Made by a program: the position numbers. Shown here in pieces: positions 27,001 to 30,000 of a DNA stretch of 64,000 nt. This DNA comes from Candidatus Kapaibacterium sp. (lineage in GTDB: Bacteria; Bacteroidota; Ignavibacteria; Kapaibacteriales; JAEUSM01), in contig JAEUSM010000006.1 in assembly GCA_016788785.1 (NCBI GenBank), forward strand, positions 473,864 to 537,863, in the 5' to 3' direction. Position 1 is the stretch's first letter; each line of letters begins with the position of its first letter.

Positions 27001-30000
27001 AACATTGCAATAGAAGTTGATGGTGGAGTAAAACTCTCCAATGTTCGTGACGTCGTTTCTGCAGGAGCATCAATTATCGTGAGCGGTTCAGGTCTTTTTT
27101 CTGGTAATTTGGAACAAAACATCCAAGAAATGAAAAATGCAGTTATAGATTTATAAAATCTGTAGTACATTCCTAATTTGTAAGGAAGCCCTATATGAGC
27201 GTCTTTTTTTTACCACCTACTTTGTATGGGTGGCTGAAAGGCGGGGTGGCTTCATATTCTTTCGACAGGACAGGTCGCGACCTGTCCCTACAATACATCA
27301 GTTCCCCTACTTTTGGGGGGTCGTAAAGCTGCTGGGTGGTTTCTTACTATCGCAATGCGTAGAGACGCCCTATATGGGCGTCTCAGGTGTGTAAATTTTT
27401 TATCTTTATTTTGGTGAGACGCCCATATAGGGCGTCTCTACGAAAAATTTTGTTTTTCTGCATCATTGGGCAACCTTTACGGTTGCCCCTACCTTTTGAA
27501 GATTCCACCCCGCCACTACGTGGCACCCCAAAAGAAGGGAACCAATCTTTCGAAATGGTATATAGAGACGGAATGCTTATCGTCTATACAAATTATCGAT
27601 ATCTGCCTCTCCCTCAAGTCAGTAGGAATAAATCAACATGAGATTGAAAATTTCATTCTGACAAGTGGTTGATTGTTTTGAACAAAACCTATGAAGTTTA
27701 TAAACAAATTGAAATCACTCAACTTCTCGAACAGAAAAAAACTCTTGGATTTGATAAATTAATTTTGTAATTTCGAGAGTAGTAGTCTGAATTTTCAATT
27801 TTTGTCAAAGTTTAGTCATGAAAACTCTATTCTCAATTGTAGTTTTAACAATACTTTTGCTTTTTAGTGGAATCAATTTAACTGCCTCAACAACTCCCAA
27901 GATTGATTGGAATCATGTCATTCCTTATAATCAGGATTCTTTGTTGGCAATTCAAGGAATGCAGGTAATTAGCACCTCAGATGGTGGATGTTTAGTGTCT
28001 GTTCAATCTGAATTAAGTTTACCAATTTTTTCTAAATACTCATCAACTGGTACAAATGAATGGTTTAGATTTAGACCTTTAGATGTGCATAAAGAACTTT
28101 TTAGCAACCTAAAATTAAGTTATACATTTAATTCGCACCAATTGTTAGAAAAAGATGAAGAATATTTAATGTATTCCTTTTACCATATACCAAACCCTTT
28201 TGGAGATATTGGCAATCTTGGTACTGCTTATGTTGTAAAAAATAGCACTGAAGGTATTGGTGAATTGATGCTTAGTCAAAAAGATGAGGATAAGTTGATT
28301 AATGTAGTTTCAATTAAACCAATTCCAAATGGAAATGTACTTATAGCATCAAACCCTACGTCTGCACTTTATAATATACTTTCAGAAACAAGGAATGGGT
28401 TTAATCTATTACCAAAAAAATTTACATATCGAGATAGTGAAAGAATATTTACGATTCCTTTGAGTATTTTAGATGCAGAAGACTCAAGCCGATTTATTTT
28501 TAATGCAGGTGCTTCGTCGCTATATACTCCAGACGGCAAGGTGACAATTCTAAAAATTAAGGATACCAATTTGATTGGTAAAATTGAATTTGATAGAACA
28601 ATTACTGGAGAAACATCCTATGACTTTGCTTATAGTAATGCCCATTATACCAATGGTATCTTTTATTTGGTAGGAAATTTAAAAGAAAAGAACTCCAATA
28701 ATAAAAGAGCTTTTTTGATAGTTATTGATACTAACAAAACATTGATCAATTTTACTAAGTACGACTTAGGTACGGTTGTAGTTGGTTCTAGTCTTAGTAA
28801 GGACAATGATCAAGTTTCTTTAGTCGGCTGGTATGAGAAAACTCCTTCTAAACGACAATTTTTTGCAACCAGATTTAACACATCAAACTTCTTTTCAAAT
28901 TCTTATACTTGGAATTTAAACGAAGGTTCCGATGATAGATTGATGAAGGTAGCTTATGGGAAATACAATGAATTGTTTGTTACCGGTGGAAGTAATAGTG
29001 ATTGTTATACTGCAAAATTGCAAAATGAGCCTATAACTTCAGTTTCTGAGAATTTAAACAATTCATCATCAATTCTTTATCCAAATCCTACTTCTGGTAT
29101 ATTGAATTTTTCTCCATCTGTGCATACAAACTATACTTCGTTGGAATTGTATGATATGTTTAATAGAATGGTTCGAACTATTCGATTTGACCAATACAAC
29201 AGTACAGTATTGTCAGTTGAACAACTTTCCCAAGGAGTGTACACTGCAGTATTTAAAGGCATAAATGGAAATAAGGTCGAAAAGATAGTTATTCATCGAT
29301 AATTTCTGCAAAGAATCAAAAAGCCCCATATTGGGGCTTTTTTTTTAGGTTCATAAGAAATGTTGGTGATAGAATCTTCAAGAAAATGTAGGGGCGACCT
29401 ATGTGTCTGCCCATTTATACAGAATGTCCCCTCTCCCCATCCCTCTCCCCAATGGGGCGAGGGAGTTATCGTGTTTGCGTCTCTACGATGGCGTTTTTCT
29501 CTTGACCACGGTGTGGTCACATATTTATAGAATTACCAATACAATGAATATTCGACCCCGTAGGGGTCGTACCTGATTTTCGATGTCAATTTTATAAATA
29601 TAGTACCCAGCAGGATAAAGAAAAGGTAGGGGCAGACCTATGTGCCTGCCCATTTATGCAGAATACCCCCTCTTCCGATCCCTCTTCCCAATGGTGCGAG
29701 GGCGTTAACGTGTTTTGGTTTGGAAAAGATTCCACCCCGCCACACTTCGACTACGCTCAGTGACCGGTGGCACCCCTGCAGTTTCTTCAATTAAATGTTT
29801 TTAAAACAAATCGATGTAAGATTTTACTTTTTTGACGTAAGCTTGGGTTTCTTTGAATGGGGGGATTCCGTCGTATTTTTTGACGTTTCCAGGACCGGCG
29901 TTGTAGGCTGCTAAGGCTAAATCCAAATTTTCATCAAATTGGTTGAGCATTTGTCGTAAATACTTTGCTCCACCGTTGATGTTTTGTGCTGGGTCGTACG

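What the first reader, a model, noticed from the sequence alone, without database searches (positions are those of the whole stretch)
27185..27610. Largest repeat island: two copies of a 26-bp palindrome carrying Esp3I/BsmBI-type GAGACG sites, plus three further modules, upstream of a T9SS cargo gene
GTAGAGACGCCCTATATGGGCGTCTC and GAGACGCCCATATAGGGCGTCTCTAC occur ~55 bp apart. The same palindrome recurs with different spacers (AAAGCATT, AAATTTTG) at 5.6 kb and 18.4 kb, and the flanking GTAGAGAC arms are conserved. Only the loop or spacer varies, which suggests selection on structure (RNA hairpin or protein-binding dyad) rather than on sequence. The 650-bp island between rpe and the next gene would give that gene a long, structured 5' leader.
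Basis: seen in the sequence. Interest (0 to 1): 0.5.

Follow-up and report, generated by a model that had tools for sequence, protein, structure and literature searches.

The report
Cluster of GTAG-footed REP palindromes
The "repeat island" is a pile-up of small mobile DNA hairpins (REP elements, of the type linked to RAYT transposases) in a variable intergenic spot of a Kapabacteria genome, which is a known kind of selfish or co-opted repeat and not a dedicated regulatory leader for the neighbouring secretion-cargo gene.

Summary
GTAGAGACGCCCTATATGGGCGTCTC (27359-27384) and its exact inverse (27416-27441) form a 28-bp perfect inverted pair. GTAGAGACG occurs 7 times in the window against 0.13 expected.

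The palindromes are GTAG-footed, partly "double-foot", REP elements. This type is already catalogued as the cognate repeat of TnpA-REP/RAYT subclass 2.4 (Quentin 2018, Table S1: GTAGAGACGCACGGCCGTGCGTCTCTAC and others).

- **Spread:** a genome scan found the same foot and stem in at least 17 phylum-level groups. In 8 of 120 stretches it lies in frame inside a RAYT gene ("VETPRRGVST"), the hallmark of subclass 2.4.
- **Window context:** five GC-rich islands are mosaics of such REPs plus lineage-specific linker modules. All are intergenic, between unidirectional or convergent genes, which resembles BIMEs.
- **Not a conserved leader:** relatives with 82% rpe identity have no island and no cargo gene. 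A 93% relative has a differently ordered island. In an 89% relative the same 185-nt composite block sits on the other side of the cargo gene.

No RAYT was found in the window, and the source genome could not be searched. Verdict: a new member of a known kind, of low-to-moderate interest.

The parts
27180..27213 (+). Decayed module A REP (GTAAGGAAGCCCTATATGAGCGTCTT) followed by a T-run, directly after the rpe stop codon.
   Evidence: 78% identical to the reference copy. It folds at only -4.3 kcal/mol, z about 0. The orthologous copy in L126 is intact (GTAGAGACGCCCTATATGGGCGTCT plus T9) and terminator-like at -18.2 kcal/mol, z -4.4.
27213..27266 (+). Module B (decayed copy). This is a lineage-specific linker-like module containing two GGGGTGG repeats.
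   Evidence: Window 27213-27293 matches L167 at 87.8% over 82 nt. Module B alone is not significantly structured.
27268..27291 (-). Module F: a GTAG-footed REP, GTAGGGACAGGTCGCGACCTGTCC.
   Evidence: 10-bp perfect palindrome. Detected as a foot plus stem. RNA fold -13.2 kcal/mol, z -3.4. The same class is listed as GTAGGGACAGAC... under subclass 2.4 in Quentin 2018 Table S1.
27300..27346 (+). Module B, + orientation. It is the outer left arm of a nested inverted repeat.
   Evidence: Pair I1: 27305-27345 against 27499-27539, 41 nt, 71% complementary. The two pair in the MFE fold.
27358..27442 (.). REPIN-like doublet: module A (+) at 27359-27384, a 31-nt AT-rich spacer, then module A (-) at 27416-27441. 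The GTAG feet face outward.
   Evidence: 28-nt arms, 100% complementary. ssDNA fold -35.1 kcal/mol, z -11.5. The identical 30-mer recurs at 18513-18542. Four Logan assemblies break inside it at 27439.
27468..27492 (-). Module E: a GTAG-footed REP, GTAGGGGCAACCGTAAAGGTTGCCC.
   Evidence: 8-bp stem. RNA fold -15 kcal/mol, z -4.1. Nearly identical to the C. hutchinsonii REP GTAGGGGCAACCCTTGCGGTTGCCC in Quentin 2018 Table S1.
27498..27554 (-). Module B, - orientation. It is the outer right arm of the nested inverted repeat.
   Evidence: 84% complementary over 57 nt to 5617-5673 (I1). Other copies lie at 10234-10297, 10306-10350, 18441-18499 and 29727-29777.
27561..27589 (.). Degenerate double-foot module A: TATAGAGACGGAATGCTTATCGTCTATAC.
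   Evidence: 77% identical to the 5585-5610 copy (D6). Weak fold of -6.3 kcal/mol, z -0.3.
5585..5610 (-). Module A copy with a different distal stem and loop (GTAGAGACGCAATGCTTTGCGTCTCT). It is part of an 89-nt A+B unit repeated in tandem (5572-5656 and 5661-5745).
   Evidence: D3, D6.
5747..5774 (.). Double-foot module A variant: GTAGAGACAGGGCATGCCCTATCTCTAC.
   Evidence: Compare the Emticicia REP GTAGAGACAGGGCATTGCCCTGTCTCTAC in Quentin 2018 Table S1.
18399..18426 (.). Perfect 28-nt double-foot module A: GTAGAGACGCAAAATTTTGCGTCTCTAC.
   Evidence: 14-bp perfect palindrome.
18514..18539 (-). Third identical copy of the TATAT-loop module A.
   Evidence: D15: 30 of 30 nt identical to 27415-27444.
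29388..29476 (+). Module C, a composite of the REP GTAGGGGCGACCTATGTGTCTGCCC and a CCCCTCTCCCC...GGGGCGAGGGAG hairpin. A second copy lies at 29626-29715 and a partial inverted copy at 5793-5845. An A remnant follows at 29470-29486.
   Evidence: D2, I2; z -3.1.
10234..10499 (.). Island 2: long B, short B, an E-like REP (GTAGTTGCAACCTTTACGGTTGTCC, 10363-10387), the module C tail, and module D (10467-10499).

Best explanation
**What it is.** The 27.2-27.6 kb island is a BIME-like mosaic of repetitive extragenic palindromes (REPs). They belong to the GTAG-tagged superfamily, in a Candidatus Kapabacteria genome (34.5% GC).

**Module A.** Its form is GTAG-AGACGC-loop-GCGTCT-CTAC. It is the 'double-foot' or long REP type already catalogued as the cognate repeat of TnpA-REP/RAYT subclass 2.4 (Bertels group 4).
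- The two inverted copies at 27359-27441 form a REPIN-like doublet.
- Modules E, F and the head of C are sister GTAG REP classes (GTAGGGGC..., GTAGGGAC...).
- Modules B and D and the tail of C are lineage-specific linker sequences that travel with the REPs.

**Mechanism (inferred from the family, not shown here).**
- On single-stranded DNA the hairpin, with its 5' GTAG guide tetranucleotide, is bound and cleaved by a RAYT HUH/Y1 nuclease.
- That enzyme copies or moves REPs and REP doublets into extragenic DNA, mostly downstream of genes.
- Copies then decay by mutation unless they are maintained.
- This explains the identical foot and proximal stem in every copy, a distal stem that is conserved only as pairing, and a free loop.

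**At this locus.** The island is an accumulation site inside a strain-variable segment between rpe and the SLT gene. It is not a dedicated regulator of the cargo gene.
- Individual REPs can be co-opted. In a 93%-identical relative, the first REP after rpe plus a U-run forms an intrinsic-terminator-like hairpin. That copy has decayed in this window.
- Any transcribed copies would give a stable 3' structure to the rpe mRNA.
For: **Shown here**
1. Anatomy. There are 10 GTAG-footed hairpin calls, all in intergenic DNA. The five islands lie between unidirectional or convergent genes. The inverted doublet has 28-bp perfect arms.
2. Literature identity. Quentin 2018 Table S1 lists the following under subclass 2.4:
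   - GTAGAGACGCACGGCCGTGCGTCTCTAC (Chloroflexus aggregans)
   - GTAGAGACGCAATGCATTGCGTCTCTAC (Chlorobium chlorochromatii)
   - GTAGAGACGCAATTTATTGCGTCT and GTAGGGGCAACCCTTGCGGTTGCCC (Cytophaga hutchinsonii)
   - GTAGAGACAAGG... (Aequorivita)
3. Link to RAYT.
   - In an unbiased all-against-all ORF clustering of 120 genome stretches fetched by the REP pattern, the largest cross-genome cluster (8 genomes) is a protein of about 180 aa with NHxH / WQ / YIxxNP motifs.
   - It hits PF01797 at 23.8 bits and NF047646 REP_Tyr_transpos at 63 bits.
[quoted passage not shown] This is the published hallmark of subclass 2.4.
   - 50 of the 120 top homologues from the first profile search carry the same insert. 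In the two searches together, motif matches were VETPKLGVS 51, VETPNLGVS 47 and VETPRRGVS 28 among 231 proteins.
4. Covariation in the distal stem, with the foot and proximal stem fixed by the search pattern.
5. Turnover between relatives.
   - The island is absent in L128/L129.
   - It is reshuffled in L126.
   - In L127 its 185-nt core block is 89.7% identical but sits on the other side of the orthologous cargo gene.
6. Three identical 26-30-nt copies coexist with decayed ones, which points to recent copying plus decay.
7. No Rfam family matches.
Against: - **No RAYT found for this lineage.** None is present in the 64-kb window. None is in about 100 kb of contigs from Kapabacteria relatives, nor in the 117 low-GC metagenome stretches that carry the exact TATAT-loop REP.
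- **The source genome could not be searched.** No homologue named Kapabacteria or carrying 'VETPYMGVS' appeared in the top hits. Current mobilisation in this genome is therefore inferred only.
- **The 8-genome protein is a marginal match to curated models.** It scores 23.8 bits against the Pfam cutoff of 23, and 63 bits against the NCBIfam cutoff of 80.
- **Modules B and D have no GTAG foot.** B is not significantly structured, and its role is unexplained.
- **No transcript data.** A cis effect on the cargo gene cannot be excluded.
Confidence: 0.82

Rival explanations
1. The island is a long structured 5' leader (a cis-regulatory RNA) of the T9SS cargo gene at 27818-29302.
For: - The + strand RNA of 27157-27620 folds far better than shuffles (-180 kcal/mol, z -10.5).
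- The island lies upstream of the gene and on the same strand as it.
Against: - The strong fold is what any stack of inverted REPs gives.
- The same modules sit at four other sites next to unrelated genes, including two convergent gene pairs where no leader is possible.
- The island is absent from L128/L129, where the cargo gene is also missing.
- The module order differs in L126.
- In L127 the core block lies 3' of the orthologous cargo gene.
- There is no Rfam hit.
- A -7-like box (TAATTTTG) lies at 27760, downstream of the island.
Confidence: 0.04
2. The palindromes are operator dyads for a transcription factor, or sites for a nucleoid protein. That is, they are host-selected double-stranded DNA binding sites and not mobile elements.
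For: - Perfect dyad symmetry and a conserved half-site, GTAGAGACG.
- E. coli BIMEs are known to bind IHF, gyrase and Pol I. This is established knowledge, cited in Nunvar 2010 (PMC2817692, abstract).
Against: - The same foot and stem occur in at least 17 phylum-level groups with host GC from 34% to 74%. They also occur on 93 predicted viral contigs.
- They lie inside RAYT ORFs.
- Their location has no fixed relation to promoters.
- Decayed copies are common.
- Positions differ between close strains.
Confidence: 0.04
3. The palindromes are orphan REPs. They were acquired or amplified in the past by a RAYT that this lineage has since lost. They now only decay and are shuffled by homologous or illegitimate recombination between copies.
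For: - No RAYT was found in any Kapabacteria-derived sequence examined.
- There are several decayed copies (27180-27205, 27561-27589, 5675-5700, 29470-29486).
- Whole composite blocks of 185 nt, not single REPs, differ in position between strains. Recombination would explain this.
Against: - Three copies are identical over 26-30 nt, and the inverted pair has a 28/28 perfect match. This argues for recent copying or gene conversion.
- Only a small fraction of the genome could be examined, so the absence of a RAYT is weak evidence.
Confidence: 0.1

Closest known systems
REP sequences associated with TnpA-REP/RAYT subclass 2.4 (Quentin et al. 2018, PMC6006769), which equals RAYT Group 4 of Bertels et al. 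2017 (PMC5581495)
   Same: - The same 5' GTAG foot and the same proximal stem AGACGC.
- The same 'double foot' GTAG...CTAC architecture, with a 24-29-nt length and 3-5-nt loops.
- Sister classes GTAGGGGC... and GTAGGGAC... in the same genomes.
[quoted passage not shown]
- A patchy multi-phylum distribution that includes Bacteroidetes, Chlorobi, Chloroflexi and Cyanobacteria.
   Different: - The host lineage, Kapabacteria, does not appear in the parts of the papers I read.
- The cognate RAYT of this genome was not found.
- Here the REPs are packed, together with non-REP linker modules, into 200-450-bp mosaics. The published table lists only REPs within 1 kb of tnpA-REP genes.
GTAG-tagged REP superfamily (Di Nocera et al. 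2013, PMC3733652)
   Same: - A short stem-loop tagged at one end by GTAG.
- Extragenic location, mostly between unidirectional and convergent ORFs.
- Many units close together in opposite orientation.
- Several REP types per genome.
   Different: That survey found GTAG repeats in Proteobacteria, Cyanobacteria, Chloroflexi and PVC, but only CGTC repeats in Bacteroidetes and Chlorobi. The string GAGACG is not in its text.
REPINs (REP doublets forming hairpins; Bertels and Rainey 2011) of Pseudomonas and E. coli, linked to RAYT groups 2 and 3
   Same: Two inverted REPs separated by a short spacer fold into one long hairpin (27358-27442: 28-bp arms, 29-nt spacer).
   Different: - The associated RAYT clade differs (group 4, not 2 or 3).
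- Only one clean doublet is present in the window.
- Most copies are singletons, or self-complementary double-foot units, which Quentin et al. suggest can arise from a doublet by central deletion.
BIMEs (bacterial interspersed mosaic elements) of E. coli
   Same: A mosaic of REPs in alternating orientation, separated by a small set of conserved linker motifs and located in extragenic DNA.
   Different: There is no sequence relationship. The linkers here (B, D, C tail) are specific to this Kapabacteria lineage. No IHF or gyrase binding is known for them.
IS200/IS605 subterminal hairpins recognised by TnpA (Y1 HUH transposase)
   Same: This is the mechanistic ancestor: a Y1 HUH enzyme recognises a small imperfect hairpin plus a nearby guide tetranucleotide on ssDNA.
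   Different: REPs carry no transposase between left and right ends. There is no IS structure and no tnpB, and the copies are 25-30 nt long.

Membership tests
GTAG-tagged REP / RAYT-associated REP (subclass 2.4 type) | A 5' GT[AG]G tetranucleotide at the foot of a GC-rich stem-loop of about 20-40 nt | tested here: met
   10 GTAG-footed hairpin calls with 8-11-bp stems and 2-5-nt loops. Sequences were read directly.
GTAG-tagged REP / RAYT-associated REP (subclass 2.4 type) | Repeated many times, and restricted to extragenic DNA | tested here: met
   - 7 exact GTAGAGACG sites against 0.13 expected.
- All copies lie in the 7.2% of the window that is intergenic.
- Genome-wide copy number could not be counted.
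- Further copies occur in contigs of close relatives (L126, L127, L154, L157, L167, L179, L194, L197).
GTAG-tagged REP / RAYT-associated REP (subclass 2.4 type) | Sequence identity with published REPs of the class ('double foot' GTAG...CTAC) | tested here: met
   Quentin 2018 Table S1 lists GTAGAGACGCACGGCCGTGCGTCTCTAC, GTAGAGACGCAATGCATTGCGTCTCTAC and GTAGAGACGCAATTTATTGCGTCT. Compare the window copies at 18399-18426 and 5585-5610.
GTAG-tagged REP / RAYT-associated REP (subclass 2.4 type) | This REP type is physically associated with a RAYT gene (REPtron, or REP inside tnpA-REP) | tested here: met
   Met in other genomes only. In 8 of 120 pattern-fetched stretches, the REP lies in frame inside a Y1 protein with NHxH / WQ / YIxxNP motifs.
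GTAG-tagged REP / RAYT-associated REP (subclass 2.4 type) | A cognate RAYT gene is present in the same genome | not testable with these tools
   - No RAYT in the window or in about 700 kb of low-GC loci that carry the TATAT-loop REP.
- The source MAG (contig of about 645 kb) could not be scanned.
GTAG-tagged REP / RAYT-associated REP (subclass 2.4 type) | Binding and cleavage of the ssDNA hairpin by the RAYT | not testable with these tools
   This is biochemistry. It has been shown only for E. coli TnpA-REP (Messing 2012, PMC3479197; Corneloup 2021, PMC8266576; both listed).
REPIN | Two REPs in inverted orientation, separated by a short spacer, able to form one long hairpin | tested here: met
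   27358-27385 and 27415-27442, 100% complementary. Fold -35.1 kcal/mol, z -11.5. The same doublet is conserved in L127.
REPIN | The doublet is the replicating unit, meaning many doublet copies of the same architecture in the genome | tested here: inconclusive
   - Only one doublet is in the window. Other A copies are singletons or double-foot units.
- In L127 the doublet moves as part of a 185-nt block.
- In another organism the doublet is amplified in tandem.
BIME (E. coli type) | REPs of alternating orientation separated by conserved linker motifs | tested here: met
   The island order is A'-B+-F--B+-A+-A--E--B--A'. Linkers B and D and the C tail recur in all five islands. This is a resemblance of architecture only.
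BIME (E. coli type) | Sequence homology to the enterobacterial Y/Z REPs and the L/S/l/s/r linkers | tested here: not met
   The sequences are unrelated. Modules B-F are absent from all 120 other-phylum loci.
Known structured RNA family (Rfam) | A match to a curated covariance model at its gathering score | tested here: not met
   0 matches in the whole window on both strands.

The most novel reading that the evidence does not exclude
Two readings go beyond 'ordinary REPs' and are not excluded by the evidence.

(a) **REP mosaics as cassette-exchange joints.**
- REP mosaics bracket a strain-variable cassette between rpe and the SLT gene. Islands lie on both sides of the cargo gene, at 27157-27817 and 29303-29800.
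- The whole 2.6 kb is absent from 82%-identity relatives.
- A different gene occupies the site in L126, and there is an extra gene in L127.
- The mosaics may therefore act as recombination or integration joints that let T9SS cargo genes be swapped.

(b) **One horizontally travelling RAYT/REP lineage.**
- The GTAGAGACGCCC hairpin keeps an identical foot and stem in at least 17 phylum-level groups, including CPR bacteria. It is also found on predicted viral contigs.
- It is embedded in frame in its own transposase.
- It could therefore be a single pan-bacterial RAYT/REP lineage, in which the in-gene copy has a function such as autoregulation or serving as the source copy.
Probability: 0.15. Interest if true: 0.55.

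Novelty: new member of a known kind. Interest (0 to 1): 0.22.

Why it matters
**Annotation**
- These islands create spurious ORFs, for example 27387-27641 and 5497-5844.
- They break short-read assemblies. Four Logan contigs end inside the doublet.
- They can be mistaken for riboswitch-like leaders. Recognising them as REPs prevents that.

**Biology**
- The finding extends GTAG REPs of the RAYT subclass-2.4 type to Kapabacteria.
- It shows them building BIME-like mosaics with lineage-specific linkers.
- It gives a clean natural series for studying REP turnover and co-option. The same site is empty, intact and terminator-like, or decayed in relatives of 82-93% identity.

**Breadth**
- An identical foot and stem appear across many phyla, while loop composition tracks host GC. 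This is a useful handle on what the RAYT actually reads.

Tried and rejected
- **Rfam scan of the whole window:** no family.
- **RAYT in the window or related DNA.** HMMs built from 8 and then 120 RAYTs were run against six-frame translations. The targets were the window, the Kapabacteria-relative loci, 117 metagenome stretches and 93 viral stretches. The only hits were the 8 already-known loci plus one fragment in L091.
- **Two profile searches of the 5.8-billion-protein set,** aimed at a Kapabacteria RAYT. Both returned thousands of RayT homologues. None was named Kapabacteria and none carried the lineage-specific 'VETPYMGVS' insert.
- **Modules B-F in other phyla:** absent. They are lineage-specific, not part of the pan-phylum element.
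- **Module B as a hairpin REP:** rejected, because its folds are no better than shuffles.
- **Restriction-site idea (Esp3I/BsmBI):**
  - GAGACG/CGTCTC is concentrated in the islands (13 of 15 sites).
  - It is somewhat rare elsewhere: 2 observed against 4.8-9 expected, depending on Markov order.
  - The counts are too small to claim avoidance, and no R-M gene was looked for.
- **sigma-70 promoter scan:** not enriched over shuffles (8 found against 10.3 expected). Terminator-like sites were 7 against 2.3 expected, and most of them are the REPs themselves.
- **CRISPR, attC and MITE/TIR readings** were considered and dropped:
  - there is no regular spacing in the window;
  - there is no R''/L'' attC core;
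  - I saw no terminal inverted repeats with target duplications around single units.
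Full report
**1. Observation**

The quoted sequences are present exactly as written.
- GTAGAGACGCCCTATATGGGCGTCTC lies at 27359-27384, and its reverse complement at 27416-27441.
- Extended by one base on each side, the arms 27358-27385 and 27415-27442 are 28 nt, 100% complementary and 29 nt apart.
- As single-stranded DNA the doublet folds into one long hairpin of -35.1 kcal/mol. Shuffles average -8.8, giving z -11.5.
- GTAGAGACG occurs 7 times in the window against 0.13 expected.
- The copies at 5585-5610 and 18399-18426, with other inner sequences, are also real.
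- The gap between rpe (26494-27156, PF00834) and the next gene is 661 bp. That gene (27818-29302) carries a Por_Secre_tail domain, so 'T9SS cargo' is correct.

**2. Anatomy**

The window is 34.5% GC. It holds five GC-rich intergenic islands:
- about 5530-5850
- about 10230-10500
- about 18370-18545
- 27170-27600
- about 29350-29780

Three lie between genes on the same strand and two between convergent genes. They are mosaics of a few modules, used in both orientations.

- **Module A** is GTAG-AGACGC, then a variable distal stem and loop, then GCGTCT-C(TAC).
- **Modules E** (GTAGGGGCAACCGTAAAGGTTGCCC), **F** (GTAGGGACAGGTCGCGACCTGTCC) and the head of **C** (GTAGGGGCRACC...) are other hairpins with the same 5' GTAG foot.
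- **Modules B and D** and the tail of C have no such foot. B alone folds no better than shuffled sequence.

The island in question reads as follows:

| Module | Coordinates |
|---|---|
| decayed A plus T-run | 27180-27213 |
| B (+) | 27213-27266 |
| F (-) | 27268-27291 |
| B (+) | 27300-27346 |
| A (+) | 27359-27384 |
| A (-) | 27416-27441 |
| E (-) | 27468-27492 |
| B (-) | 27498-27554 |
| degenerate double-foot A | 27561-27589 |

The two outer B copies are themselves inverted, so the core is a nested palindrome (I1). A scan for GT[AG]G-footed hairpins gave 11 calls against 2.3 in Markov simulations. All 11 lie in the 7.2% of the window that is intergenic, and 10 of them are GTAG-footed.

**3. 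What it is**

A 5' GTAG tetranucleotide at the foot of a short GC-rich extragenic hairpin defines REP sequences of the GTAG superfamily (Di Nocera 2013, PMC3733652). It also defines the REPs flanking tnpA-REP/RAYT genes (Quentin 2018, PMC6006769).

*Published sequences.* Quentin et al. describe RAYT subclass 2.4 as having 'long' and 'double foot' (5' GTAG ... CTAC 3') REPs. Its distribution is 'Cyanobacteria, Bacteroidetes and various phyla'. [quoted passage not shown] Their Table S1 lists sequences with the same arms as module A:
- GTAGAGACGCACGGCCGTGCGTCTCTAC (Chloroflexus aggregans)
- GTAGAGACGCAATGCATTGCGTCTCTAC (Chlorobium chlorochromatii)
- GTAGAGACGCAATTTATTGCGTCT (Cytophaga hutchinsonii)
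- GTAGAGACAAGGCATGCCTTGTCTCTAC (Aequorivita)

The table also lists GTAGGGGCAACCCTTGCGGTTGCCC, which is nearly module E, and GTAGGGACAGAC..., which is the class of module F.

*Independent test.* I scanned one genome per species for GTAGAGACGCCC-N3-7-GGGCGTCTC.
- By my estimate about one chance hit is expected.
- Matches came from at least 17 phylum-level groups: Acidobacteriota, Chloroflexota, Bacteroidota, Ignavibacteria, Cyanobacteria, Patescibacteria, Gemmatimonadota, Planctomycetota, Latescibacterota, Fibrobacterota, Cloacimonadota, Desulfobacterota, Nitrospirota and others.
- Host GC ranged from 34% to 74%.
- Clustering all ORFs of these stretches without prior assumption gave, as the largest cross-genome family, a protein of about 180 aa found in 8 genomes.
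- It has NHxH, WQ and YIxxNP motifs. It hits Pfam Y1_Tnp at 23.8 bits (cutoff 23) and NCBIfam REP_Tyr_transpos at 63 bits (cutoff 80).
- In all 8 genomes the REP lies inside the ORF in frame, as 'VETPRRGVST'. This is exactly the subclass-2.4 signature.
- The family has more than 7,500 homologues, many of which JGI names 'REP element-mobilizing transposase RayT'. A large share carry VETPxxGVS(T).

Module A is therefore the REP of this RAYT clade. It is a known kind.

**4. Structure versus sequence**

I collected 179 distinct GTAGAGAC...GTCTC elements.
- The four distal stem positions are 87-93% Watson-Crick.
- Position 3 uses all four pair types (CG 68, GC 53, AT 36, TA 10).
- The loop tracks host composition: CGCCG or CGTG in GC-rich hosts, and AATTT, AAATT or TATAT in AT-rich ones.
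- The foot and proximal stem were fixed by my search patterns. They are also identical in all window copies and in the published ones.

The element thus looks sequence-read at the foot and structure-read distally. This fits recognition by a RAYT of a GTAG guide plus a hairpin (Messing 2012; Corneloup 2021; both listed). That last step is inference from the E. coli enzyme.

**5. Is it a leader for the cargo gene?**

The source organism is a Candidatus Kapabacteria MAG. Relatives give a clear series:

| Locus | rpe identity | State of the rpe-to-SLT region |
|---|---|---|
| L128/L129 | 82% | The rpe stop is 1 nt from the convergent SLT gene. There is no island and no cargo gene. |
| L126 | 93% | A different gene occupies the site. 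The island has another module order. The first REP after rpe is intact and followed by nine T, making it terminator-like at -18.2 kcal/mol, z -4.4. The window copy has decayed to -4.3 kcal/mol, z 0. |
| L127 | 89% | The cargo gene is orthologous (71% aa). The gap after rpe holds an ordinary terminator and decayed remnants. The block [A+, spacer, A-, E-, B-] is 89.7% identical over 185 nt but lies downstream of the cargo gene. |

The window region 27157-29800 is therefore a variable insert.

Further evidence against a dedicated leader or operator:
- The modules occur beside unrelated genes and between convergent genes.
- There is no Rfam hit.
- A -7-like box lies downstream of the island.

The strong fold of the island (z -10.5) is what stacked inverted REPs give anyway.

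**6. Limits**

- No RAYT was found in the window, in contigs of Kapabacteria relatives, or in 117 low-GC metagenome stretches carrying the exact TATAT-loop REP.
- The source genome itself could not be searched. Whether these REPs are actively mobilised or are orphans shuffled by recombination remains open.
- Identical copies and position differences between strains favour recent activity. Decayed copies and block-wise movement are compatible with either reading.
- Modules B and D are unexplained linkers specific to this lineage.

**7. Verdict**

The 'hairpin under constraint' idea is right in spirit. The 'structured leader of the cargo gene' reading is not supported.

The feature is a REP/REPIN cluster with BIME-like architecture, of the already catalogued RAYT subclass-2.4 type, in a host lineage that the papers I read do not mention. 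It is a new member of a known kind, of low-to-moderate interest.

The more novel readings still open are that the REP mosaics serve as joints of a cargo-gene cassette hotspot, and that this is a single pan-phylum RAYT/REP lineage.

Noticed in passing
L164 130-770 (also L160, L162, L178, L180, L187, L192, L203 and about 50 other metagenome loci): In anaerobic-digester and bioreactor metagenomes, the same REP forms a tandem array of ~119-nt units. Each unit is an inverted pair: GTAGAGACGTGCTACATGCGCGTCTC ... GAGACGCCCATATAGGGCGTCTCTAC. The array directly abuts a CRISPR array (repeat GTTTCCATTCCTCATAGGTAGGATAAGAAC). Cas6-like and Cas3-like ORFs lie in loci L134 and L146, which come from the same set of matches. 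So a REPIN-like doublet has been tandemly amplified next to a CRISPR array.
   Followed up: partly
window 27157-29800, compared with L126 6664-9326, L127 6664-9859 and L128 6053-6055: The segment between rpe and the SLT/flagellar gene cluster is a strain-variable cassette site. It is empty in L128/L129, holds a 399-aa BNR-like gene in L126, holds a 249-aa ORF plus the cargo gene in L127, and holds the cargo gene alone here. Wherever it is occupied, REP-type repeats (intact or decayed) lie on both sides of the inserted gene or genes.
   Followed up: partly
window, whole: GAGACG/CGTCTC (the Esp3I/BsmBI site) occurs 15 times. Thirteen of these are inside the REP islands. Outside the islands there are 2 sites against 4.8-9 expected, depending on Markov order. 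The numbers are too small to call this avoidance.
   Followed up: partly
L247-L339 (IMG/VR viral contigs): The double-foot REP GTAGAGACGC-N4-14-GCGTCTCTAC occurs in 93 stretches of predicted viral contigs (GC 36-69%), several with 2-3 copies each. None carries a RAYT. I did not check whether these are true phage DNA or host flanks.
   Followed up: no
window 21418-21848, inside ORF 21202-22842: Three tandem copies of a 120-nt (40-aa) coding repeat lie near the 5' end of the gene. Its L126 orthologue hits the S4 and PseudoU_synth_2 families. The orthologues differ in length between strains: 546 aa here, 446 in L126, 605 in L127 and at least 578 in L128. This suggests a variable repeat number.
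   Followed up: no
window 10057-10081: A (TA)12 microsatellite lies in the AT-rich part of the intergenic region that also holds REP island 2.
   Followed up: no
window 27387-27641, 27466-27672 and 5497-5844: ORFs of 68-115 aa run through the REP islands. They are almost certainly spurious. The same kind of read-through gives the 'VETP..GVST'-type peptides seen in databases.
   Followed up: no
L001-L005, compared with window 27252 and 27439: All five short-read (Logan) contigs that carry this rpe end inside the island. Four end at 27439, within the second arm of the doublet. The repeats therefore break de Bruijn assemblies.
   Followed up: yes
L009 4310-4372, L053 1440-1500 and 1950-2010, L096 6799-6920, L121 4900-5030: In several other phyla the REP is accompanied by short tandem partial copies of one arm (for example 'gtagagacgcccataaatta' repeated, or 'ggcgtctctacggcagggcgtctctac'). 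There are also arrays with 45-nt spacing. This hints at slippage or repeated nicking at the foot.
   Followed up: no
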